From a virus: a DNA stretch of 39,449 nt. The stretch lies in the IMG/VR virus record IMGVR_UViG_3300045988_065902, one strand, 5' to 3'. Under the pieces are notes generated by a model, which was not told the DNA's origin, did no database searches, and saw nothing but the letters and a program-made list of their open reading frames with translations. Below are positions 16,794-25,304 of this stretch, piece by piece (the first letter of the stretch is position 1; each line of letters begins with the position of its first letter). A program made the position numbers and the translations under genes.

Positions 16794-17207
16794 ATGGCCG
16801 AAAATACTCATCCCAAAAATGGCGAAAGAATACCGAAGCCGTTAGGACGTAGACCGATTGAAATCGACCTGAAGAAGGTTGAGGAGTACGCGCAAGTCTG
16901 CGACAATGAGGAGGAAATCGCCCTTGCGTTGGGGATTTCTCAGGACACGTTGACGCGCCGCAAGCAGAACTATGCGGAATTTGCGGCCGCGATTAAAAGA
17001 GGTAAGGCCAAGGCAAATGTGTTCGTCGGCGGCAAGCTGATGGATCAAATCAAGAACGGAAACATTGCCGCGACGATTTTCTATCTTAAGTCGCGATGCG
17101 GGTGGAAGGAAACTCAGCGCCTAGAAGGCGATTTGACCACAACAGCGAAACCGCCCGAGGGCTTGCAGGATATTTACAACGCGCTGGCCCGCGGGACCAA
17201 GCAATGA
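16794..17207 (+). CDS. terS: Terminase small subunit
   Basis: HTH-type N-terminus (EEIALALGISQDTLTRRKQNYAEFAAAIKRGKAKA) and ...AATIFYLKSRCGWKE, typical of small terminases. ATGA-coupled to terL. Confidence 0.75.
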   Translation: MAENTHPKNGERIPKPLGRRPIEIDLKKVEEYAQVCDNEEEIALALGISQDTLTRRKQNYAEFAAAIKRGKAKANVFVGGKLMDQIKNGNIAATIFYLKSRCGWKETQRLEGDLTTTAKPPEGLQDIYNALARGTKQ

Positions 17208-19366
17208 CAACCAATAGCGCCGACCCATTCGTCGAACTGTACAGGCCGCACCGATACAAGGTGTTTTACGGGGGGCGAGGCAGTGGCAAGAGCTGGGCAG
17301 TCGCACGCGCGCTAATCGCCATGGCTGATTTCGGGCGGGTGCGCATTTTGTGCTGCCGTGAGGTGCAGAACTCTATCCGCGATTCGTCGTATCAGACGCT
17401 GAAAGACACAGCGGAGCGCATGGGCTTATTTGACCGGTTCGACTTCAAAGAGTCTGAGATAGAGCATAAGCGTACCGGAAGCCGCTTTATCTTCTCGGGC
17501 CTCTTGCGTAATGAGAACTCGATTAGGTCAAAGGAAGGCATTGATATTTGCTGGATTGAGGAGGCATCATCCGTTTCGCGCAAATCGTGGGACGTGCTGA
17601 TTCCGACCATCCGCAAACCCGGGTCAGAGTTGTGGCTGACGTTCAACCCGCTCACGGTCGACGACCCAACGAATGATTTCCTAGAGACACCGCCCCCGGG
17701 CGCCTACGTTCGCAAGGTCAACTATACGGACAACCCGTATTTCCCTGAAGTCCTTCGGGAGCAGATGGAATGGGACAAGGCGAACGATTACGAGAAGTAT
17801 CAGCACATTTGGGAGGGCTTCCCGCTCACCATCAGCGGGGCGCAGATTTTCCGCGGCAAGTACGTCGTCGAGTCGATTCCGGACGATCTTTGGCAACAGG
17901 CAGACCGGCTGTTTTTCGGCGCCGACTTCGGTTTTGCGCGTGACCCGTCGACGCTCGTTCGGTGCTTCATATTGGATAATCGCCTGTATATTGACTATGA
18001 GGCGTATGGCGTCGGCGTTGAAATCGACGAGTTGCCTCAGCTGTATCGCTCGGTGCCCGAGTCGACGAAATGGCCGATTAAGGCGGACTGCGCCCGGCCT
18101 GAGACAATCAGCTATCTGAAACGCCACGGGTTCAACATCGAGGGCGCCGAGAAATGGCCGGGGAGCATCGAGGAAGGCATTAGCTTTATTCGAAGCTTCG
18201 ATAAGGTCGTTATCGACCCGCGATGTGTGCACACGGCGGACGAGTTCAGGCTGTACTCGTACAAAACGGATAGACTGACTGGCGAGGTTCTGCCGGTCGT
18301 CTTAGACAAAAACAACCACTGCATAGCAGAAGGGGCATTGATTAGGACAATCAATGGCGATGTTCCTATTGAAAGAATCAAGGTCGGCGACTTGGTTTTG
18401 ACAAGGATGGGATTTAAGCGGGTTTTGGCTAGTGCGATTACTGGCGAAAACAGAGAAGTCCTAGAAATAACAACTGGTTCAGAGGTGTTAAAATGTACCG
18501 CAGAGCATCGAATCTTTACAAAGAATCGAGGCTTTGTTGAGGCACAAAATTTAACTACTCAGGACGTGTTGTTATGCCTAAAGCAGAAACCATTATTTAC
18601 GACGGGAAGCGCTGGAACAGATATCCGGAATCAGAAAGGCGAAGCGACAGAGCTTATTTCAAGCGATCTGTTACCGGCGGGGCAATATGGTTGCACAGAT
18701 ACATTTGGGAGAAAGCTAACGGAGCAATCCCGAAAGGCGCGCATATCCATCACAAAGATGGGAACACGCTTAATAACGATCTGTCAAACCTTGAGTGCCT
18801 TACGCCGAAGGCTCATAGAAAAAACCATCCCATTGTCGGTGAAGCTCGTGAAAGACAGCTTAAGCACCTCGAAGGCATCAGAGAGAAAACGAAAGCCTGG
18901 CACGCTTCTAAGGAAGGACACGAATGGCACAAGGCGCACGCTAAAGCACACCACTGGGGGGTTTTTGACTTACCGGAGAAGAAGTGCGCCCATTGTGGGA
19001 AAATCTTTAAGCCTAAAACATATCGCGGAAAGTTCTGCTCAAACGCGTGTAAATCGGCGTGGCGGAGAGATCAAGGACTTGATAACGTCGAAAGGATTTG
19101 CGCTCAATGCGGAAAGGGTTTTACCTGCAACAAGTACAGCAAACATCGTTTTTGTTCTAAAAGCTGTGCGAGGCGTTACGAAGGTATGCAAAAAAGAAAA
19201 ACGGGTTTATGACCTAACAATTGAAGGTCAGCCGGAGTTTTTCGCAAATGGAATTTTGGTTCACAACTGTATCGATGGAATCAGGTATTCCCTGGCAGAT
19301 TACATAAAGGCACGAGGCTATGGCTTCAAAATCTCGGAAGACGAAACGCCCGACCTCTGGCTTTGA
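17204..19366 (+). CDS. terL: Terminase large subunit (PBSX/Terminase_3-like) precursor interrupted by an intein; the spliced product would be 404 aa
   Basis: Walker A YGGRGSGKSWA, then CCREVQNS and WIEEA (Walker B region). The nuclease motif DKNNH|...|CIDGIRY is split by the intein. The true start is the ATG at 17204, not the track start at 17096. Confidence 0.9.
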   Translation: MTTNSADPFVELYRPHRYKVFYGGRGSGKSWAVARALIAMADFGRVRILCCREVQNSIRDSSYQTLKDTAERMGLFDRFDFKESEIEHKRTGSRFIFSGLLRNENSIRSKEGIDICWIEEASSVSRKSWDVLIPTIRKPGSELWLTFNPLTVDDPTNDFLETPPPGAYVRKVNYTDNPYFPEVLREQMEWDKANDYEKYQHIWEGFPLTISGAQIFRGKYVVESIPDDLWQQADRLFFGADFGFARDPSTLVRCFILDNRLYIDYEAYGVGVEIDELPQLYRSVPESTKWPIKADCARPETISYLKRHGFNIEGAEKWPGSIEEGISFIRSFDKVVIDPRCVHTADEFRLYSYKTDRLTGEVLPVVLDKNNHCIAEGALIRTINGDVPIERIKVGDLVLTRMGFKRVLASAITGENREVLEITTGSEVLKCTAEHRIFTKNRGFVEAQNLTTQDVLLCLKQKPLFTTGSAGTDIRNQKGEATELISSDLLPAGQYGCTDTFGRKLTEQSRKARISITKMGTRLITICQTLSALRRRLIEKTIPLSVKLVKDSLSTSKASERKRKPGTLLRKDTNGTRRTLKHTTGGFLTYRRRSAPIVGKSLSLKHIAESSAQTRVNRRGGEIKDLITSKGFALNAERVLPATSTANIVFVLKAVRGVTKVCKKEKRVYDLTIEGQPEFFANGILVHNCIDGIRYSLADYIKARGYGFKISEDETPDLWL
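18320..19267 (+). mobile_element. Intein 1 (316 aa) in terL
   Basis: Starts CIAEGALIRTINGDVPIERIKVGDLV (block A). Block B is KCTAEHRIFT. The C-terminus is VYDLTIEGQPEFFANGILVHN followed by the +1 Cys (19268). The central roughly 210 codons in this frame show no endonuclease motif. Confidence 0.85.
18574..19212 (+). CDS. HNH homing endonuclease with two C-terminal CxxC...FCSxxC zinc-ribbon repeats, encoded in a different frame inside intein 1
   Basis: WLHRYIWEKANGAIPKGAHIHHKDGNTLNNDLSNLECLTPKAHRKNH is a canonical HNH. The zinc repeats are CAHCGKIF...FCSNAC and CAQCGKGF...FCSKSC. An in-frame TGA lies at 18538-18540, and there is a weak AGGA 9 nt before the ATG. Confidence 0.8.
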   Translation: MPKAETIIYDGKRWNRYPESERRSDRAYFKRSVTGGAIWLHRYIWEKANGAIPKGAHIHHKDGNTLNNDLSNLECLTPKAHRKNHPIVGEARERQLKHLEGIREKTKAWHASKEGHEWHKAHAKAHHWGVFDLPEKKCAHCGKIFKPKTYRGKFCSNACKSAWRRDQGLDNVERICAQCGKGFTCNKYSKHRFCSKSCARRYEGMQKRKTGL

Positions 19367-20807
19367 GGTCACCGGCGAATATGACGGCTCCTCAACGGTG
19401 GTAGACGCTATCCCGCAAGAGAAAGACATTCGCGAACTACTCAAGCCCGCGCGGTCACTCGCAGGGTCAAAAGCGCACTACAAACAGCTAGACGGCGCTA
19501 TGGACGCGGCTTTTGCGGGCGGCATTGTGCCTAAATTCGAATGGTCAGCGATCTCAAGCCTTGTCAGCTTTGTCGGCTACGGCGTTTTGCAACAGCTTTC
19601 GCAAGACGCGCTCATTCGCCTGTGCATTCAAACCCGCACAGATGAGATGCTGCGGGCGTGGATTGAAATCAAGTGCGACGACGACAAGCGCAAGAAGGCA
19701 CTTGAGGAAGAGATTGTCCGGATCGGCTTGCGCGATACGCTTTACAAAGCGCTCACGACCATGGGCATGATGGGTGGCGCCTTCGTGTTTATCGACACGG
19801 GGCACGCCAAGCCGGATGAAGTACTCAATAAGACATCACGCTCGACGGAGCTTAAAGACCGCGTATCGTTCCGCGTGATTGATCCGATCTTCACGACGCC
19901 GCAGAGCTTTAACGCGTCTGACCCGCTGAAAGAAGACTTTTACAAACCCGCGGTGTTCTACATCATGGGCACGGCGGTGCATACGTCGCGCCTGATCCGA
20001 CTTGTTGAGAACGAGGTACCGGACTTACTCAAGCCGTCGTATAACTTCTTCGGCATCGCTCAGGCGCAGTTGCTTTCGGACTACGTGACGCACTTCCGCA
20101 AGAACCGCGAGGAAGTAAATACGCTTCTTACAAAGTTCTCGACGAGCTTCATTAAGACCGATTTGGGCGCTCAGCTCTTTGCCCGTAAGTCGTGGCAACC
20201 GGTGAGCGACCGCGTGAAGTTCTTTGCGAAGTTCCGAGACAATAGCGGCGTCGGCCTTCTCGATAAGGACAAAGAAGACTTCGTGCAGGTCAACACGCCG
20301 ATTACGGGCCTCACTGACATTGTGCGCCAGTCGCTTGAGTTCGTCGTGTCCGTCAACCAAAGCGGTGTAGTGAAGACGCTCGGGCTGTCGCCTTCGGGCT
20401 TTAATGCTACGGGCGAGAGCGACATTAAGTTGCAGGCCGACTTAATCGCCACGCGGCAGGAGAAGATTCTGCGCCGCCCGCTTGAGGAGATACTGCGCAT
20501 TTTGCAGATCAATCTCTTTGGTGACATTGATCCTAGTTTGAGCTTTGAATTCTGTTCGCTGGACGAAGACGACGAGCGCACGACGGCGGAGGTCAAGAAG
20601 ATGATGGCCGACACGGCCGCCGTTTACCTTGACCGCGGCGTGCTCTCAGAGGACGAAGTCCGCGCGGCGTTGAGTAATGCCAAGGATCATCCGTATGGCG
20701 ATCTTGAGGGTGAAGCCCCCGGGGCGCCGGAAGACCCGTTCGGGCAAATGAGCAGCACGACTACGGAGGAGCGCGATGACATCGACAAGGCGGGCGCCGT
20801 CTACTGA
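19320..20807 (+). CDS. Portal protein
   Basis: 495-aa ORF directly after terL, with an acidic C-terminus. The position and size are typical. The family (DUF1073-like) is recalled from sequence character only. Confidence 0.7.
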   Translation: MASKSRKTKRPTSGFEVTGEYDGSSTVVDAIPQEKDIRELLKPARSLAGSKAHYKQLDGAMDAAFAGGIVPKFEWSAISSLVSFVGYGVLQQLSQDALIRLCIQTRTDEMLRAWIEIKCDDDKRKKALEEEIVRIGLRDTLYKALTTMGMMGGAFVFIDTGHAKPDEVLNKTSRSTELKDRVSFRVIDPIFTTPQSFNASDPLKEDFYKPAVFYIMGTAVHTSRLIRLVENEVPDLLKPSYNFFGIAQAQLLSDYVTHFRKNREEVNTLLTKFSTSFIKTDLGAQLFARKSWQPVSDRVKFFAKFRDNSGVGLLDKDKEDFVQVNTPITGLTDIVRQSLEFVVSVNQSGVVKTLGLSPSGFNATGESDIKLQADLIATRQEKILRRPLEEILRILQINLFGDIDPSLSFEFCSLDEDDERTTAEVKKMMADTAAVYLDRGVLSEDEVRAALSNAKDHPYGDLEGEAPGAPEDPFGQMSSTTTEERDDIDKAGAVY

Positions 20808-22587
20808 CGTACGCATACGAGCCGTGCGGCCGAATGCAGGGCTTCGGAAGGCGTACGCGGGCAAACTGCGCTCGCTCGTGCGTCAGATGGCGCAGGACGT
20901 CGCCAAAGAACTTGAGGGGCTGTATCGCAAGGTCGAGCCGCGGATTGCGAAAGACGCTAAGGCTGAGTCCCCTGCCGAGCGCTTGCAAAAGATCATTGAC
21001 CGGATGCGGAAGAAGTGGGAAGAAAGCACGCGCGACTTTGCCGAAGACACAGCGGATTGGTTTGTCCGGAAGACGCGGGACCACGTCGACCGGGCGCAGA
21101 ACTCAGCGCTACGGGCCTCGGGGTTTGATGCCTTCGACCTGCGTTTTGACAAGGGGCAGATTTCGCAAGACGCTTTTGACGCACTTGTGAACGCCAATAC
21201 GTCGCTCATTAAGTCCATCAGCTCCCGATATCTTCAGGAAGTCGAGGGGCTTGTCATGCGTGCCGTGACCGATGGGCGAGACGTAGCGGGGCTTAAGTCC
21301 GAGCTATCCAAGCGCTACGACATCACTCAGCGCCGTGCCGACCTCATTGCCCGCGATCAGTGCAATAAGGCGACCGAAGCCCTGTGCCGCGCGAATGATT
21401 TAGAGGTTGGTGTAGAGCAGGGCGAATGGATTCACGTACCAGGCAAGCACACGAGCCGCGAGACACACAAGGCGATGGACGGCAAAAAGTTCGACCTAAA
21501 AAAAGGACTTTACGACCGCGATGTTGGGCGCTACGTCCTCCCCGGGGAATTGCCGGCCTGTTTTGTTGGGGAATCAAAGCTTAACGATCTTCCATTCCCA
21601 ATGAAGCTGTATCGGCGTCTCTACACGGGAAAATTGGCCGAGTTCATTACGGACGACGGCACAGTGTGTAGTGCGACACCGAATCACCCAGTACTCACGC
21701 TTAAAGGGTGGAAGCCCGCGCGCCTTCTCGACAAGGGAGATTATTTGATCCATAAAAAGCGGACAGATTGCTCCCTCATCAAAGAACTCAACGCAGATTG
21801 GGTTGTACCCACATTCGAGGAGCTTTTTGATGCGCTTGTTCTCGACGGCGTTCCCGCCTCGGTATCTGAGGGTTCCGCAGGTCAATTCCACGGCGACGGG
21901 TCCGACGGCAAAGTCGACGTTATAGACGTCTACGGCCTTCTGACGAACGAAGTCAATGCCGAGCTGAGTCAGGTATGTGGCAAATTCGGCCTCTCCTTTG
22001 CCGAAGCGGCCGACTTTGCCCGTTTGCTCTCGGGATTGCGCCCATCGGACGCGTTCATCGTGCGGGTGAGTAATTCCGGTGACGGCAAGATTGGCGGCCT
22101 TTGTGATCGCTTTTCGAGCTTCTTCAGAAGCTTGAGCAAAACGCAAAAGCTGTGCTTCTTGAATCCCGCGAATTTTGACCCCAGCTCTTTCGAGCCTTCG
22201 CCGGATGGCTTGACGGCCAACGTTGAAATGTTTGGCAATAGCCTGCTCGGATTGTCCGCTTTGGTACATGGTGATGATTTCATCCTCGGGCAGCTGGATG
22301 CGATCGCCCGTGCGGCGGTAAACGGGGATTTCTATTCCTCTCTTCCGAAGGTGCTTGCTGATGATGTCGGCGGAAAACCCGATCTCTTTTGCGATTTGAA
22401 TGAGGCGCTTGCCTTCGGATACGGCCTTAGCCGCGTGAGCGAAGTGCGATTCCGTGAATTTTTTGGACATGTGTACAACCTCCAAACTCAGGTTAATTGG
22501 TACATTGTAAATAATACCGTGGTTCACAATTGCCAGTGTACGTATCGTCCAATATTGAGTAGGAAGCTATGGAAAAAGAACTCTTAG
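20776..22587 (+). CDS. Head morphogenesis protein (Mu F / SPP1 gp7-like) precursor interrupted by an intein; the spliced product would be 279 aa
   Basis: WIHVPGKHTSRETHKAMDGKKF...LPGELPA|intein|CQCTYRPI reconstitutes the Mu F-family C-terminal PG....C.C...P motif. GGAGGAG precedes the ATG. Confidence 0.8.
   Translation: MTSTRRAPSTDVRIRAVRPNAGLRKAYAGKLRSLVRQMAQDVAKELEGLYRKVEPRIAKDAKAESPAERLQKIIDRMRKKWEESTRDFAEDTADWFVRKTRDHVDRAQNSALRASGFDAFDLRFDKGQISQDAFDALVNANTSLIKSISSRYLQEVEGLVMRAVTDGRDVAGLKSELSKRYDITQRRADLIARDQCNKATEALCRANDLEVGVEQGEWIHVPGKHTSRETHKAMDGKKFDLKKGLYDRDVGRYVLPGELPACFVGESKLNDLPFPMKLYRRLYTGKLAEFITDDGTVCSATPNHPVLTLKGWKPARLLDKGDYLIHKKRTDCSLIKELNADWVVPTFEELFDALVLDGVPASVSEGSAGQFHGDGSDGKVDVIDVYGLLTNEVNAELSQVCGKFGLSFAEAADFARLLSGLRPSDAFIVRVSNSGDGKIGGLCDRFSSFFRSLSKTQKLCFLNPANFDPSSFEPSPDGLTANVEMFGNSLLGLSALVHGDDFILGQLDAIARAAVNGDFYSSLPKVLADDVGGKPDLFCDLNEALAFGYGLSRVSEVRFREFFGHVYNLQTQVNWYIVNNTVVHNCQCTYRPILSRKLWKKNS
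21559..22530 (+). mobile_element. Intein 2 (324 aa) in the MuF-like gene
   Basis: Starts CFVGESKL (block A). Block B is SATPNHPVLTLKGWKPARLLDKGD. The C-terminus is GHVYNLQTQVNWYIVNNTVVHN followed by the +1 Cys (22531). I see no LAGLIDADG, HNH or GIY-YIG motif in the sense frame. Confidence 0.8.
21574..22470 (-). CDS. HTH + Vsr/DUF559-like PD-(D/E)xK endonuclease (298 aa), antisense and codon-aligned inside intein 2
   Basis: GGAGG lies 8 nt before the ATG at 22470 (MSKKFTESHF). Two HTH units are present (LIQIAKEIGFSADIISKHLRKRGI; SEQAIAKHFNVGRQAIRRRLERAGV), followed by GEAEFATYLTQLGIDFVRQKAVDVYNVDFAVGPVAVELTCG...NKRIKKLLECGYNPICV. Confidence 0.7.
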   Translation of the reverse strand: MSKKFTESHFAHAAKAVSEGKRLIQIAKEIGFSADIISKHLRKRGIEIPVYRRTGDRIQLPEDEIITMYQSGQSEQAIAKHFNVGRQAIRRRLERAGVKIRGIQEAQLLRFAQASEEARKAITKAANLAVTGITHPHDERVRWAQSREQTGKVGRFGKGEAEFATYLTQLGIDFVRQKAVDVYNVDFAVGPVAVELTCGTLRYRGGNAVENKRIKKLLECGYNPICVEFFDEGAICPLFMDQIISLVEKARGLPPFKREYWVIRCRTTHCAVVRNELGQFSRVETPIQLHWEWKIVKL

Positions 22588-23729
22588 CGCTTGATGAGAA
22601 GGTTGTTATGGAGTCGGCGCGGACGCGCGACAAGAACGGCTTTTTGCAGGTCAAGACATCGAATTTAACGCGCGACCACGTGGCGCCTTACTACGGGCGC
22701 GAGATTCCCGGATGGGAAGAGCGGCAGTTAGACCCGGACCGGATTTATTACGGCTGGCGCAACCCAGACGAGCTTAAGGCGGCACTCGCGACATTCAACG
22801 GCGTTCCGCTTTTAATCGAGCACAAGTTTGACAGCGCCGAGCACCCTAATAAGGAGTTACGCGTCGGCACCGTCGGCACTAGCGCGAAGTGGGAGCCGCC
22901 ATACATTACCAACGCGCTCAGCGTATGGGATGAAAAAGCAATTTCTGCGATTGAGGACGGCACATTGCGTGACCTCAGTTGCGGATACAGATATAAGCCC
23001 GATTTCACGCCCGGGGAGACTCCGGACGGGCTTGCCTATGACTTCGTGATGCGCGAGCTCGCTTGCAATCACGTGGCACTTGTTCACGAGGGTAGAGCTC
23101 CCTACTGTTATGTCTCTGACGAAAAACCGAGAGGAATCACGATGAGTGAAGAAACAAAGGTTGATGGGGCGTGTGACGACTTCACGGAGTTTGCACGCAA
23201 GACTATCGACGAGTCAGGCGTTGAGCTGACGCCCGAGCAGAAGGACGCACTTGTGCGCGCTTTTGCAGAATCTCACGCGAAGTTCGAAGAAAGCAAAGCC
23301 GATGAGGCCGAGCAGGAAACCGAAGGCACGCGAGACGAAGAGCCCGCCAAGCCCGAAGGCGCCGAAGACGCTGACGAGCCCAAGGACGAGGCCAAAGCCG
23401 AAGACGAAGACGCGGGCGAAGCCAAGCCCGAAGGCGGCGCCATGGACGCGGCCATGATTGCCAAGACGGTGCGCGGGCAGTTGTCTGCACAGTACCGCGC
23501 GGCGACCGATGTCAAGTCCGTGCTTGGCAACGTCGACCCGATGGCTTACGACAGCGCCGACGCGATCTATCTCGACGCCGTCAAGGCGATGGGCGTCAAG
23601 AACGTCCCGGCGAGCGCCGCCAAACACGTCTTTGCCGCTTTGCAGTCGGTCAAGACCGCCGCCCCGAGCGGCGCAATGGATTCGGCGCCCAAGAGCGACG
23701 AAGATTTTTTGAAGCAGTTCATTCGATAA
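22569..23729 (+). CDS. Prohead protease/scaffold-like protein (DUF2213-like N-domain with an acidic scaffold-like C-half)
   Basis: RTRDKNGFLQV...SNLTRDHVAPYYGREIP...YYGWRNPDELKAALATFNGVPLLIEHK resembles DUF2213. A long Glu/Asp/Ala/Lys-rich linker follows. Confidence 0.55.
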   Translation: MEKELLALDEKVVMESARTRDKNGFLQVKTSNLTRDHVAPYYGREIPGWEERQLDPDRIYYGWRNPDELKAALATFNGVPLLIEHKFDSAEHPNKELRVGTVGTSAKWEPPYITNALSVWDEKAISAIEDGTLRDLSCGYRYKPDFTPGETPDGLAYDFVMRELACNHVALVHEGRAPYCYVSDEKPRGITMSEETKVDGACDDFTEFARKTIDESGVELTPEQKDALVRAFAESHAKFEESKADEAEQETEGTRDEEPAKPEGAEDADEPKDEAKAEDEDAGEAKPEGGAMDAAMIAKTVRGQLSAQYRAATDVKSVLGNVDPMAYDSADAIYLDAVKAMGVKNVPASAAKHVFAALQSVKTAAPSGAMDSAPKSDEDFLKQFIR

Positions 23730-24257: not shown

Positions 24258-24281
24258 TCTTTTTTGAAAGGTGGATTAGAA

Positions 24282-25304
24282 ATGGCACGAAGTGAAACCA
24301 TGGAGCGCCTTGGCTTTGACCTGTGCAAAGGCAACGGGCGTTTTCTTCCGACTCAGAACGGCACTGCCGATATCGCGATGGACGCTGCTTTGCAGACCGT
24401 CGCCAACGTGCAGACCCCTGCTCTGTTTGCAACCTACTATAGCCCTGAGATTGTCGAAATCCTTCAGGCTCCCCGCAACTCGACGGAGATTTTCTCCGAA
24501 GAAAAGCGCGGCGACTGGAAGGACGTTCAGACGATGTTCCCGGCTGTCGAATACGTTGGTCAGACGACGGCATACAGCGACTACGGTCGTGGCCTGCTGT
24601 CTGAAGCCAACATTGAGCAGGTGACTCGCGAAACCTACAAGTTCCAGACCTTTATTCAGATCGGCGACTTGGAAGAAGATATCGCGACGGCTCAGAAGAT
24701 CAATTTGCTGTCTGAAAAACAGCGCGCCGCGGCAACCGCGATCGAAATCGACGCCAACAATTACAACCTGTTTGGCGTCGCCGGTATGTCCATCTATGGC
24801 CTTCTGAACGATCCGGCACTGCCTGCCGCCCTGTCGCCCGCTGCCGTCGATACTAAAACGGCATGGGCCGACAAGGATGCGAACGCGATTTATAACGACA
24901 TCCTTTCGATGTTCAATCAGATCGCCGCCGCGTCCAATGGCTACGTGAGCTTTAACAGCAAGCTGAAACTGGTGGTGCCGCCGTCCATCATGGGACAGTT
25001 GGCCAAAACGACGACCCTCGGCGTCGCGCCCGTTCTTCAGACTCTTAAGGGCTTCTTCCCGGGCCTTGAGATCATCTCGCTCCCGCAGCTTCAGGATGAC
25101 ACGGGCGTTTGCAAAGCCATGCTGATCGCGACGGAAATCGCAGGACGGCCTACGGCTAAATTCGGCTTCCTCGAAAAACTGAAGACCTATCCGGTTCTCG
25201 TCGAGCACTCTTCCATGTCTCAGAAGTGGGCATCGTCCACTACCGGCTGTCTGTTGTTCCGTCCGTTCGCTGTTGCGACGATGACGGGTATTCAGAAGTC
25301 GTAA
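24282..25304 (+). CDS. Major capsid protein
   Basis: AGGTGG lies 6 nt before the ATG at 24282. It is a 340-aa ORF in the capsid position and is followed by stem-loops. The family (DUF2184-like) is recalled from memory, not searched. Confidence 0.7.
   Translation: MARSETMERLGFDLCKGNGRFLPTQNGTADIAMDAALQTVANVQTPALFATYYSPEIVEILQAPRNSTEIFSEEKRGDWKDVQTMFPAVEYVGQTTAYSDYGRGLLSEANIEQVTRETYKFQTFIQIGDLEEDIATAQKINLLSEKQRAAATAIEIDANNYNLFGVAGMSIYGLLNDPALPAALSPAAVDTKTAWADKDANAIYNDILSMFNQIAAASNGYVSFNSKLKLVVPPSIMGQLAKTTTLGVAPVLQTLKGFFPGLEIISLPQLQDDTGVCKAMLIATEIAGRPTAKFGFLEKLKTYPVLVEHSSMSQKWASSTTGCLLFRPFAVATMTGIQKS

What the first reader, a model, noticed from the sequence alone, without database searches (positions are those of the whole stretch)
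21559..22530. Head-morphogenesis (MuF-like) intein carrying a codon-aligned antisense endonuclease gene with its own Shine-Dalgarno
Seen:
- The MuF-like ORF is split at its conserved C-terminal PG....C.C...P motif by a 324-aa intein (CFVGESKL..., TPNHP, ...NNTVVHN|CQC).
- On the opposite strand, triplet-for-triplet aligned with the sense codons, is a 298-aa ORF. It is preceded by GGAGG-8 nt-ATG, and that SD sits in the N-L-Q codons of intein block F.
- The antisense ORF encodes two HTH units and a Vsr/DUF559-type PD-(D/E)xK-like core (VDF...VAVELTCG...).
- It spans almost exactly the intein.
- The sense frame has no stop over all 299 antisense codons, so the endonuclease gene contains no in-frame TTA, CTA or TCA.

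Inference: this is a mini-intein whose homing endonuclease is encoded antisense. The intein linker is simply the open shadow frame of that gene.

Vsr-like free-standing endonucleases are known from split-intein 'fractured genes'. Here the intein is still contiguous.
Basis: partly seen in the sequence, partly recalled or inferred. Interest (0 to 1): 0.9.

Follow-up and report, generated by a model that had tools for sequence, protein, structure and literature searches.

The report
Intein with antisense homing-endonuclease gene
A phage head-assembly gene carries a self-splicing protein insert (intein) whose DNA-cutting "homing" enzyme is encoded backwards on the opposite strand, codon for codon; this is real and strongly conserved, but the same design was reported for actinobacteriophages in a 2025 preprint.

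Summary
The MuF gene (20776-22587, +) holds a 324-codon class-1 intein (21559-22530) at its conserved PGELP|CxC motif. A 298-aa ORF (22470-21574, -) lies in exact codon register on the other strand, behind GGAGG-8 nt-ATG.

- **The antisense protein is real.** It has two HTH units plus a Vsr-like nuclease domain. Its best PDB match by fold and by profile is the homing endonuclease I-Bth0305I.
- **Selection reads the antisense frame.** Over the intein linker the antisense frame is the conserved one. This flips to the sense frame over the N-terminal splicing (Hint) domain.
- **The sense frame is actively kept open.** Sixty-five non-redundant embedded relatives contain 0 TTA/CTA/TCA codons where about 418 are expected. 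A free-standing relative has 12.
- **The start codon is conserved.** It is the antisense of a block-F His codon: CAT in 55 of 61 loci, CAC in 4.
- **The design is widespread.** It occurs in 126 GenBank phage records, 80/80 IMG/VR loci and 33/33 bacterial-genome loci.

Not shown: transcription, nuclease activity, splicing. The window's enzyme lacks the catalytic His of the EDxHD family.

Prior art exists. Anti-sense VSR-like endonucleases in actinophage minor-capsid inteins were reported in bioRxiv 10.1101/2025.01.02.630785, and Gorbalenya (1998) is cited there for anti-sense LAGLIDADG. This is a new member of a known, rare kind.

Side finding: the terminase intein in the same window carries an HNH gene in the +2 frame.

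The parts
20776..21558 (+). MuF / head-morphogenesis N-extein (aa 1-261)
   Evidence: Pfam Phage_Mu_F E=5e-10 and PHROG head protein / head morphogenesis hits. It ends ...VLPGELPA, aligned with intein-less homologues P0103 and P0099.
21559..21762 (+). Intein N-terminal splicing (Hint) domain, codons 1-68: Cys1, block B T40-P-N-H43, ...GDYLIHKK
   Evidence: NCBIfam and Pfam intein hits. pLDDT 76-93. Foldseek hits to Mtu RecA and Ssp DnaB mini-inteins. Here the sense frame is the more conserved one (region C).
21763..22425 (+). Sense-frame linker of the intein, codons 69-289: the open shadow frame of the endonuclease gene
   Evidence: No conserved sense residues except FHGDG..VDV, which mirrors the nuclease motif. 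Sense pN/pS about 1, and sense identity 0.29-0.36 against 0.52-0.56 in the antisense frame. pLDDT 33-58.
22426..22530 (+). Intein C-terminal splicing domain, codons 290-324: block F GHVYNLQT, block G VVHN
   Evidence: pLDDT 89-94. Pfam Intein_splicing model end matched. Followed by Cys+1 at 22531.
22531..22587 (+). MuF C-extein (CQCTYRPILSRKLWKKNS) and stop codon
   Evidence: The CxC motif is continuous with PGELP in intein-less homologues.
21574..22470 (-). Antisense homing-endonuclease gene, 298 aa: HTH 1 (aa 8-44), HTH 2 (aa 63-96), helical region (aa 104-151), Vsr-like nuclease core (aa 160-252; E160, Y183, D186, E195), C-terminal beta-hairpin (aa 260-298) that overlaps the Hint N-domain
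   Evidence: Homologues 96-32% identical, all about 296-299 aa. 1110 clusters at E<=1e-30. AlphaFold pLDDT 81. Foldseek top hit 3R3P. Profile against PDB: 3R3P E=1.8e-6. Purifying selection in this frame. No TTA/CTA/TCA.
22479..22483 (-). Shine-Dalgarno GGAGG, 8 nt upstream of the antisense ATG; antisense of the N-L-Q codons of block F
   Evidence: GAGG/GGAGG at the same spacing in most relatives: the sense Leu codon is CTC in 39 and CTT in 12 of 61 loci.
22468..22470 (-). Antisense start codon ATG, the reverse complement of the block-F His codon CAT
   Evidence: The His codon is CAT in 55, CAC (giving GTG) in 4 and TAT in 2 of 61 loci, while third positions of neighbouring codons are randomised.
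22504..22540 (-). Region where an antisense promoter would lie; only weak candidates in this copy (TTGTGA-14 nt-TACAAT, or TACACT-18 nt-TATTAT)
   Evidence: The consensus scan found none. In about 11 of 27 relatives a near-consensus TTGACA-18-TATAAT sits at the homologous place, with the -10 ending 28 nt before the ATG and the -35 being the antisense of the VSN|C splice junction.

Best explanation
**What it is.** This is a composite selfish element. A class-1 intein sits in the conserved PGELP|CxC motif near the C-terminus of the phage MuF (head-morphogenesis) protein. At the usual endonuclease-insertion point, between its N- and C-terminal splicing halves, it carries a complete endonuclease gene on the opposite strand.

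**How the two frames coexist.**
- The endonuclease gene is in exact codon register with the intein frame.
- In that register a sense stop can arise only from an antisense TTA, CTA or TCA codon (Leu, Leu, Ser).
- All three have synonyms, so the endonuclease can keep any amino-acid sequence while MuF stays translatable.

**Fate of the sense product.** The ribosome reads the sense strand straight through. It makes about 220 residues of unselected, probably disordered linker. The intein then removes itself, linker included, by protein splicing to give functional MuF.

**The antisense product.** It is a 298-aa protein with two helix-turn-helix DNA-binding units and a Vsr-like (EDxHD-related) nuclease core. 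It is translated from its own SD and ATG, which are written in the antisense of intein block F (GHVYNLQ). It most likely cuts intein-less MuF alleles during co-infection, so that repair copies the whole element in (homing).

**Shown:** the anatomy, the homology, which frame is under selection, stop-codon exclusion, start-codon conservation, and the wide distribution with empty, full, decayed and deleted states.

**Inferred:** antisense transcription, nuclease activity and target, splicing.
For: - **Anatomy and register:**
- **Intein:** Pfam and NCBIfam hits. AlphaFold gives high confidence for both Hint halves and low confidence for the linker. The top Foldseek hits are mini-inteins. Intein-less homologues are continuous across the site.
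- **Antisense protein:** a family of about 300-aa proteins. pLDDT is 81. The best PDB fold match is the I-Bth0305I catalytic domain 3R3P. The profile gives 3R3P at E=1.8e-6, the DUF559-like 3HRL at 1.4e-5, and the double-HTH protein Cbp1 at 4e-7.
- **Selection:** over the linker, the antisense third codon position varies most. Antisense identity is 0.52-0.56 against 0.29-0.36 for sense. pN/pS is 0.4-0.6 against about 1. The pattern flips over the Hint N-domain.
- **Stop exclusion:** 0 sense stops in every embedded copy except L001 (one), with per-locus P0 down to 1e-8 in AT-rich phages. IMG/VR gives 80/80 and bacterial genomes 33/33. Pooled, there are 0 of 2424 Leu+Ser codons where about 418 are expected. 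The free-standing Acinetobacter-phage homologue has 12.
- **Fragility:** one endonuclease-synonymous TTG>TTA change in L001 creates a TAA in MuF.
- **Expression signals:** start codon and SD are conserved. A near-consensus antisense promoter is present in a subset of relatives.
- **Homing-cycle states:**
- **Independent description:** the same architecture is described in actinophages.
Against: - There is no transcript, protein, cleavage or splicing data.
- No convincing sigma-70 promoter lies upstream of the antisense ORF in this window.
- The window's enzyme lacks the I-Bth0305I general-base His (H213 aligns with R202/Y203), and the D222 equivalent is unclear (N211/E210). Catalysis, if any, uses a variant active site.
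- Antisense transcription inside a late structural operon would collide with sense transcription.
- Much of the conservation statistic comes from related sequences, so it is not from fully independent events.
Confidence: 0.8

Rival explanations
1. The architecture is as described, but the antisense protein in this lineage is no longer a nuclease. It would be either a decaying homing endonuclease or one domesticated as a DNA-binding or regulatory protein, and the element would now be inherited only vertically.
For: - The catalytic His of the EDxHD family is replaced (R202/Y203), and the second metal-binding Asp is not clearly present.
- No consensus promoter was found in the window copy.
- Clearly decayed copies exist elsewhere (L105 and L106).
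- The 2025 preprint notes that some VSR-like cases look vertically inherited.
Against: - The full-length ORF is kept at about 298 aa across relatives only 30-50% identical, with pN/pS 0.4-0.6.
- E160, Y183, D186 and E195 in the nuclease core are invariant in 100 diverse members.
- The start codon is conserved.
- The element has a patchy distribution with empty sites in close MuF homologues.
- Decay, where it occurs, is quick and obvious.
Confidence: 0.15
2. The sense frame encodes a genuine, novel in-frame endonuclease or other domain, and the antisense ORF is a chance shadow ORF.
For: - The sense motif FHGDG..VDV is conserved.
- Long antisense shadow ORFs are common in GC-rich DNA.
Against: - The sense linker has pN/pS about 1, far lower identity than the antisense frame, and low pLDDT.
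- FHGDG..VDV is simply the reverse reading of the nuclease motif NxDFAxGxVAVE.
- The antisense protein has a confident fold and PDB homologues.
- It exists as a free-standing gene where the other frame is full of stops.
- The antisense ORF is intact even in 36-44% GC phages.
Confidence: 0.02
3. This is a fractured gene: MuF is made as two polypeptides joined by a split intein, with the endonuclease gene between the halves, and the sense read-through is accidental.
For: - Vsr-like endonucleases were first found in such loci.
- One relative (L001) has a stop exactly at the canonical split point after ...GDYLACEIK.
Against: - The sense frame is uninterrupted in the window and in more than 110 further loci, against expectations of 2-15 stops each.
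- No start codon or SD for a C-terminal half was identified.
- L001 differs from phage Aaphi23 by a single TTG>TTA change, so it looks like a recent nonsense mutation.
Confidence: 0.02
4. The insert is a group I intron carrying an endonuclease gene, removed at the RNA level.
For: EDxHD endonucleases such as I-Bth0305I are intron-encoded.
Against: - No Rfam family matches 21000-23000 at E<=1.
- The insert has canonical intein blocks A, B, F and G, an open frame kept by selection, and a predicted Hint fold.
Confidence: 0.01

Closest known systems
Inteins with anti-sense VSR-like homing endonucleases in actinobacteriophage minor capsid proteins (Gosselin, Arsenault & Gogarten, bioRxiv 10.1101/2025.01.02.630785)
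   Same: - A full (contiguous) intein whose in-frame middle part has no recognisable structure.
[quoted passage not shown]
- The host protein is a minor capsid / MuF-type protein.
- HHpred links the endonuclease to 3R3P (EDxHD).
- My tblastn finds homologues of the window's protein antisense in MuF genes of Gordonia phages Vivi2, Malisha and Fosterous.
   Different: - The window is not an actinophage. It has 55.6% GC, and the closest named relative of its endonuclease is Aaphi23 at 40% identity.
- The passages of the preprint I read list the architecture but do not mention these points: the obligatory codon register, TTA/CTA/TCA exclusion, the start/SD/promoter written in blocks F and G, the free-standing relative next to an intein-less MuF, or the spread through Jerseyvirus, Kagunavirus, Vibrio, Klebsiella, Pseudomonas, Edwardsiella, Helicobacter and many bacterial phyla. 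I did not read the whole paper or its supplements.
Anti-sense LAGLIDADG endonucleases in the Synechocystis dnaX and Chloroflexus SpoVR-like inteins (Gorbalenya 1998 and Gogarten 2002, as cited); see also the 2026 dnaX preprint 10.64898/2026.09.14.751524
   Same: The endonuclease is encoded in a reading frame other than the intein's, while the intein frame stays open.
   Different: - A different endonuclease family (LAGLIDADG).
- Cellular rather than phage genes.
- The 2026 preprint describes the dnaX endonuclease as a +2-frame ORF.
Fractured genes: split inteins with a free-standing Vsr-like or GIY-YIG endonuclease gene between the halves (Dassa et al. 2009, PMC2677866)
   Same: - A related Vsr-like (EDxHD-type) endonuclease with its own expression signals.
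- It is inserted at the N/C boundary of an intein.
- The loci are mainly phage loci.
   Different: - There the host gene is broken into two ORFs and the products are joined by trans-splicing.
- Here the gene is contiguous because the endonuclease is antisense, in register and free of TTA/CTA/TCA.
I-Bth0305I, prototype of the EDxHD homing endonucleases (Taylor et al. 2011, PMC3239194; PDB 3R3P)
   Same: - Two N-terminal HTH/NUMOD-like units plus a C-terminal Vsr-like nuclease domain.
- E170 and D196 equivalents are conserved (E160, D186).
- It is the best PDB match by fold and by profile.
   Different: - It is encoded in a group I intron.
- The H213 and D222 equivalents are not conserved in the window's protein.
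- The window's family has an extra C-terminal beta-hairpin and its own invariant Y183 and E195.
Intein in protein F (Mu gp30) of the Methylococcus capsulatus Bath Mu-like prophage (Ward et al. 2004, PMC517821)
   Same: - An intein in a Mu F-type head protein.
- It resembles archaeal IF-2 inteins, as does the window's intein (NCBIfam hit).
- It was reported to lack a recognisable endonuclease.
   Different: I did not examine that locus. Whether it hides an antisense endonuclease gene is untested.

Membership tests
Intein (class 1, Hint fold) | Cys/Ser at position 1 and Cys/Ser/Thr at +1 | tested here: met
   Cys1 at 21559-21561 and Cys+1 at 22531-22533.
Intein (class 1, Hint fold) | Block B TxxH, and block G penultimate His plus terminal Asn | tested here: met
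   T40-P-N-H43 and ...VVH323-N324. T, P, N, H and the terminal N are more than 90% conserved in 69 homologues.
Intein (class 1, Hint fold) | Hint fold of the two splicing halves | tested here: met
   Pfam Intein_splicing scores 28.1 bits, E=2e-6, which is below the gathering cut-off of 35.8. AlphaFold pLDDT is 76-94 for both halves. The Foldseek top hits are Mtu RecA, Ssp DnaB and Npu DnaB mini-inteins, with probability up to 1.00.
Intein (class 1, Hint fold) | In-frame insertion at a conserved host site, with intein-less homologues continuous across it | tested here: met
   P0103 reads ...PGELPNCRCV and P0099 reads ...PGQPINCRCV, against the window's PGELPA|...|CQC. An intein-less MuF is also present in Acinetobacter phages.
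Intein (class 1, Hint fold) | Protein splicing activity | not testable with these tools
   Inferred only from intact catalytic residues and from selection to keep the frame open.
EDxHD / Vsr-like homing endonucleases (I-Bth0305I) | Vsr-like nuclease fold in the C-terminal domain | tested here: met
   Foldseek top hit is 3R3P (probability 1.00, TM-target 0.58). hmmsearch of the 100-sequence profile gives 3R3P at E=1.8e-6.
EDxHD / Vsr-like homing endonucleases (I-Bth0305I) | N-terminal tandem HTH / NUMOD-like DNA-binding units | tested here: met
   Pfam HTH_7 and HTH_23 at aa 64-96. NCBIfam Cbp1 hits with two stretches. The model shows two three-helix units at 8-44 and 63-96. 2LVS matches at E=4e-7.
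EDxHD / Vsr-like homing endonucleases (I-Bth0305I) | Active-site E170 and D196 | tested here: met
   E160 and D186 align with them and are invariant in 100 family members.
EDxHD / Vsr-like homing endonucleases (I-Bth0305I) | General-base His (H213) | tested here: not met
   The aligned position is R202, with Y203 next to it. A His is present at this place in some relatives, for example Gordonia phage Malisha (GGNWH).
EDxHD / Vsr-like homing endonucleases (I-Bth0305I) | Metal-binding D222 | tested here: inconclusive
   It aligns with N211, with E210 adjacent. This position is not conserved across the family.
EDxHD / Vsr-like homing endonucleases (I-Bth0305I) | Site-specific cleavage of the empty allele | not testable with these tools
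Fractured gene (Dassa 2009) | Host gene broken into two ORFs, each ending or starting with a split-intein half | tested here: not met
   A single 603-codon ORF with no stop across the insert.
Non-canonical intein with anti-sense endonuclease (Gorbalenya 1998; Gosselin et al. 2025) | Endonuclease ORF on the antisense strand within the intein, with the in-frame middle part lacking a recognisable fold | tested here: met
Group I intron with endonuclease ORF | Group I ribozyme core | tested here: not met
   No Rfam match at E<=1 in 21000-23000.

The most novel reading that the evidence does not exclude
The element is more than an endonuclease gene that happened to land backwards in an intein. On this reading it is an integrated, bidirectionally coded mobile unit with a design rule.

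- **Design rule.** The codon-aligned antisense phase is the only antisense phase in which every sense stop can be avoided by synonymous choices. This follows from the genetic code. All roughly 130 loci examined use that phase.
- **Dual coding of blocks F and G.** These intein blocks have co-evolved to spell the endonuclease's -35, -10, SD and ATG. The conserved block-F His would then be kept for the antisense start codon rather than for splicing.
- **Abundance.** This unit is abundant (more than 1000 protein clusters) yet unannotated in cultured model phages such as Jerseyvirus, Aaphi23 and MSW-3. It may explain 'endonuclease-less' MuF inteins such as that of M. capsulatus.
- **A general solution.** The same phage also holds a terminase intein with an HNH gene in the +2 frame. 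Overprinted endonuclease genes would then be a general, overlooked way for free-standing endonucleases to colonise inteins.
Probability: 0.5. Interest if true: 0.65.

Novelty: new member of a known kind. Interest (0 to 1): 0.5.

Why it matters
- **Mobility without a recognisable in-frame endonuclease.** An intein can look like a decayed or mini-intein in its own frame and still carry a working mobility gene. Automatic annotation calls only the long sense ORF and misses the endonuclease, including in well-studied Salmonella, Aggregatibacter and Edwardsiella phages.
- **A clean natural case of antisense dual coding.**
  - Which strand is under selection changes along one stretch of DNA.
  - A simple codon rule (no TTA, CTA or TCA) keeps two genes compatible.
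  - Translation signals of one gene are written inside a conserved protein motif of the other.
- **Experimentally tractable.** Jerseyvirus phages with and without the insert are in culture, so homing, antisense expression and splicing can be tested directly.
- **Practical uses.** The endonucleases are candidate long-target nucleases. The intein tolerates a 220-residue unstructured insert.

Tried and rejected
- **Single-sequence searches for a nuclease domain failed.** Pfam, NCBIfam and PHROGs gave only HTH hits for the antisense protein. phmmer against PDB sequences gave nothing meaningful. Homology to I-Bth0305I appeared only with a 100-sequence profile and with the predicted fold.
- **DNA search was uninformative.** A distant DNA search of the MuF gene against GenBank phages found only a 75-nt match, at the nuclease motif, in Jerseyvirus-like phages. 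There is no close cultured relative.
- **No promoter in the window copy.** The sigma-70 scan of 21300-23000 found none. A hand search gave only weak candidates, so I do not claim a promoter for this copy.
- **No group I intron.** The Rfam scan was negative.
- **Early literature searches found nothing relevant.** I tried 'opposite strand', 'antisense', 'MupF', 'MuF', 'MuF-like' and 'complementary strand'. Only the 'out-of-frame' query turned up the prior art. Before that I would have over-rated the novelty.
- **Rejected readings:** chance shadow ORF, in-frame sense endonuclease, fractured gene and intron. Reasons are given under the rival explanations.
- **Weak correlation.** I checked whether the block-F His tracks the presence of an intact endonuclease gene. 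His occurs in 76 of 87 full-size inserts. The two inserts with the gene deleted have L or Y. A group with F at that position has a decayed gene. This is suggestive, not clean.
Full report
**1. The observation**

The window carries a phage head module:

| Gene | Coordinates |
|---|---|
| Large terminase | 17096-19366 |
| Portal | 19320-20807 |
| MuF-like head-morphogenesis gene | 20776-22587 |
| DUF2213 protein | 22569-23729 |
| Major capsid | 24264-25304 |

- The MuF ORF is 603 codons. Codons 262-585 (nt 21559-22530) begin CFVGESKL, contain T-P-N-H, and end VVHN before CQC.
- On the minus strand an ORF runs from ATG 22470 to stop 21574 (298 aa). It is preceded by GGAGG (22483-22479) and an 8-nt spacer.
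- Both ORFs are in phase 1 mod 3, so each antisense codon is the reverse complement of one sense codon.
- The antisense ORF has no TTA, CTA or TCA. From the codon usage of the window's other genes 4.4 would be expected, giving P = 0.0085.

**2. Which strand codes for what**

*The sense insert is an intein*
- Pfam Intein_splicing matches at E = 2e-6, below the gathering cut-off, and the match is split by a large gap.
- NCBIfam matches intein-containing IF-2, RecA and DnaB models.
- Intein-less MuF homologues read straight across the insertion point, PGELPN-CRC.
- An AlphaFold model built from 69 homologues gives pLDDT 76-94 for intein residues 1-68 and 290-324, but 33-58 for the 220 residues between them.
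- Its best PDB matches are mini-inteins.
- In the 69-sequence alignment the middle part has no conserved column except FHGDG..VDV.

*The antisense ORF is a protein family*
- Seven full-length homologues at 96-32% identity came from a word-indexed search. A profile search found 1110 clusters at E <= 1e-30.
- Its model has pLDDT 81. It shows two three-helix HTH units, a helical region, an alpha-beta-beta-beta-alpha-beta-alpha core and a C-terminal hairpin.
- Foldseek's top PDB hit is the catalytic domain of the homing endonuclease I-Bth0305I, 3R3P.
- A 100-sequence profile finds 3R3P at E = 1.8e-6, the DUF559-like 3HRL at 1.4e-5 and the double-HTH protein Cbp1 at 4e-7.
- FHGDG..VDV is simply the reverse reading of the nuclease motif N-x-D-F-A-x-G-x-V-A-V-E.

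**3. Selection**

I aligned the antisense proteins of 21 loci, threaded the DNA onto the alignment, and counted changes in both frames.

| Region | Antisense frame | Sense frame |
|---|---|---|
| Linker (endonuclease aa 16-236): identity at about 50% divergence | 0.52-0.56 | 0.29-0.36 |
| Linker: pN/pS | 0.4-0.6 | about 1 |
| Hint N-domain overlap (last 62 endonuclease codons) | less conserved | more conserved, lower pN/pS |

- Over the linker, the third position of the antisense codon is the most variable.
- The constrained strand therefore switches along the element, as expected if both the intein and the antisense gene are functional.

**4. The sense frame is kept open by selection**

- All 15 GenBank and metagenome loci examined by hand have the antisense gene in the same codon-aligned phase.
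- None of the embedded copies has a TTA, CTA or TCA codon. In AT-rich phages (Aaphi23, Vibrio, Helicobacter prophage) 9-15 would be expected, giving P down to 1e-8 per locus.
- The same holds for 80 of 80 IMG/VR loci and 33 of 33 loci from bacterial genomes and MAGs. The latter were found with a pattern taken only from the endonuclease.
- Pooled over 65 non-redundant copies there are 17,602 codons, including 1264 Leu and 1160 Ser. The three codons occur 0 times against about 418 expected from the N-exteins of the same genes.
- **Control.** In Acinetobacter Obolenskvirus phages the homologue is free-standing. It is convergent with, and abuts, an intein-less MuF gene ending ...WLPMCKCRAKL. It has 12 such codons.
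- **Fragility.** A prophage copy (L001) differs from phage Aaphi23 by TTG>TTA at endonuclease codon 237. The change is silent for the endonuclease but creates TAA in MuF right after the Hint N-domain.
- **Why this phase.** From the genetic code, the aligned phase is the only antisense phase in which all sense stops can be removed synonymously. In the other two phases some dipeptides would be forbidden. This is my own reasoning, not a tool result.

**5. Expression signals are written inside the intein**

- The antisense ATG is the reverse complement of the His codon in block F (G-H-V-Y-N-L-Q/E-T).
- In 61 distinct loci that codon is CAT 55 times, CAC (giving GTG) 4 times and TAT twice. Third positions of the neighbouring Gly, Val and Thr codons are fully randomised.
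- The Asn-Leu codons are mostly AAC-CTC, giving GAGG or GGAGG 8 nt upstream.
- In about 11 of 27 relatives a near-consensus TTGACA-18-TATAAT lies on the antisense strand at a fixed place. Its -10 ends 28 nt before the ATG. Its -35 is the antisense of the V-S-N|C splice junction.
- In the window itself, where block G is VHN, only weak candidates exist and the scan tool found none. The promoter of this copy is therefore unresolved.

**6. Distribution and life cycle**

- tblastn finds the endonuclease in 126 GenBank phage records, under genes annotated head morphogenesis, MuF or minor head protein in most of the 60 rows listed. In 14 of the 15 records inspected it lies on the opposite strand to that gene and inside it; the Acinetobacter phages, where it is free-standing, are the exception.
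- The hosts include 63 Salmonella records (Jerseyvirus among them), Kagunavirus, Aaphi23, Vibrio, Klebsiella, Edwardsiella MSW-3, Pseudomonas, Gordonia and a Helicobacter prophage.
- Only a few records annotate the antisense ORF.
- Bacterial-genome copies span Proteobacteria, Actinobacteria, Chloroflexi, Bacteroidota, Firmicutes and candidate phyla.
- All stages of a homing cycle are present:

| Stage | Example |
|---|---|
| Empty site | P0103, P0099 |
| Full element | the window and most relatives |
| Intein with a decayed endonuclease gene (in-frame stop, no start) but intact sense frame | L105 |
| Intein with the gene largely deleted | L106, P0120 |

**7. Is it a member of the EDxHD family?**

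- Homology and domain architecture are met.
- The I-Bth0305I active-site residues map as follows:

| I-Bth0305I | Window's protein | Status |
|---|---|---|
| E170 | E160 | conserved |
| D196 | D186 | conserved |
| H213 | R202 (Y203 adjacent) | not conserved |
| D222 | N211 (E210 adjacent) | unclear |

- Some relatives, such as Gordonia phage Malisha, keep the His.
- The family's own invariant residues are E160, Y183, D186 and E195.
- I file it as an EDxHD-related, Vsr-like endonuclease with a variant active site. Activity is inferred from conservation only.

**8. What is known**

- Early literature searches found nothing on antisense endonucleases in inteins. A later query did.
- Gosselin, Arsenault and Gogarten (bioRxiv 10.1101/2025.01.02.630785) report anti-sense VSR-like endonucleases in full inteins among 784 actinophage inteins. 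The non-canonical types occur in four host proteins, minor capsid among them, and all minor-capsid inteins are non-canonical. Their in-frame regions are unstructured, and HHpred links the endonuclease to 3R3P.
- They cite Gorbalenya 1998 and Gogarten 2002 for anti-sense LAGLIDADG endonucleases.
- Related reports cover an out-of-frame endonuclease in cyanobacterial dnaX inteins and out-of-frame HNH insertions in phage methylases.
- Ward et al. 2004 described a Mu F intein in M. capsulatus 'lacking a recognizable endonuclease'.
- Dassa et al. 2009 described the split-intein 'fractured gene' version.
- The window's element is therefore a new member of a recently described, rare kind.
- What I did not see in the passages I read:
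  - the codon-register rule
  - the exclusion statistics
  - the strand-switching selection
  - the dual-coded start, SD and promoter
  - the free-standing relative
  - the breadth outside actinophages

**9. Verdict**

- The mechanism is well supported at the level of sequence evolution, but untested for transcription, cleavage and splicing.
- Interest is moderate. It is a striking and instructive case, but not a first.

**10. Side finding**

- The terminase gene of the same window has a second intein at nt 18320-19267.
- Its HNH_3 endonuclease (ORF 18574-19212, Pfam E = 5e-17) is encoded on the same strand in the +2 frame.
- Homologues sit in the same +2 frame of terminase genes in Tetrasphaera phage TJE1, Acinetobacter phage Highwayman and Clostridium phage phiCDHM19.
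- In those comparisons the HNH frame is conserved (35-42% identity). The terminase frame over the same DNA shows at most marginal similarity (best E about 1e-5 over short stretches).

Noticed in passing
window 17096-19366 (terminase); intein 18320-19267; ORF 18574-19212 (+): The large terminase carries a second intein. Its homing endonuclease (Pfam HNH_3, E=5e-17, 212 aa) is encoded on the same strand in the +2 frame, while the terminase-frame translation of that stretch looks like unselected linker. The same +2 arrangement occurs in the terminase genes of Tetrasphaera phage TJE1, Acinetobacter phage Highwayman and Clostridium phage phiCDHM19. There the HNH frame is conserved (35-42% identity, E 1e-22 to 1e-56), while the terminase frame shows at most marginal similarity (best E about 1e-5 over short stretches). 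In the papers I read, I did not see an out-of-frame HNH inside a bona fide terminase intein. They report in-frame HNH, frame-3 endonuclease VII-like genes, and out-of-frame HNH in methylases without splicing domains.
   Followed up: partly
L001 4709-4711 (NCBI GCA_021310225.1 contig JABKAD010000003.1), compared with L004 (phage Aaphi23): A single TTG>TTA change is silent in the antisense endonuclease (codon 237). It turns MuF codon Q into TAA exactly at the canonical intein split point (...GDYLACEIK*). This is either a dead prophage gene or a nascent split intein.
   Followed up: partly
L010 449-1348 (Acinetobacter phage IME285) and L101 2504-3397 (phage BUCT629): Here a homologue of the endonuclease is free-standing. 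It is convergent with an intein-less MuF gene and overlaps its 3' end by 7 nt. It carries 12 TTA/CTA/TCA codons. It still has a C-terminal tail resembling the one that overlaps the Hint N-domain in embedded copies. That hints it either escaped from an intein or that the tail is an original part of the enzyme.
   Followed up: partly
window 21574-21762 (-/+), endonuclease aa 237-298 against intein aa 7-68: This is a true dual-coding stretch. The endonuclease's predicted C-terminal beta-hairpin (YWVIRC...GQF) is the antisense of the intein's block B region (TPNHP...KLA). The antisense stop TGA is the reverse of Ser6 (TCA) of the intein. Selection here favours the sense frame, but the antisense frame is not free either.
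   Followed up: partly
L002 7242-8891 (-), ENA metagenome scaffold related to the window: The terminase of this relative contains a LAGLIDADG-like motif (AGLIDTDGHFD) in frame. It probably has a conventional intein where the window has the out-of-frame HNH type.
   Followed up: no
P0124 and P0125: The same intein type (FHGDG...VD, GHVYNLQT/GHVYNLST) also sits in other head proteins, including a Phage_min_cap2 protein, at an HPNC / DDC motif. The element therefore appears to have moved between related but distinct host genes.
   Followed up: no
L105 (Logan ERR10418686 contig, P0037 gene 1001-2701): This intein has a decaying antisense endonuclease gene. There is one in-frame stop, the first HTH is lost, and block F has Phe instead of His, so there is no antisense start. 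The sense MuF frame stays fully open.
   Followed up: yes
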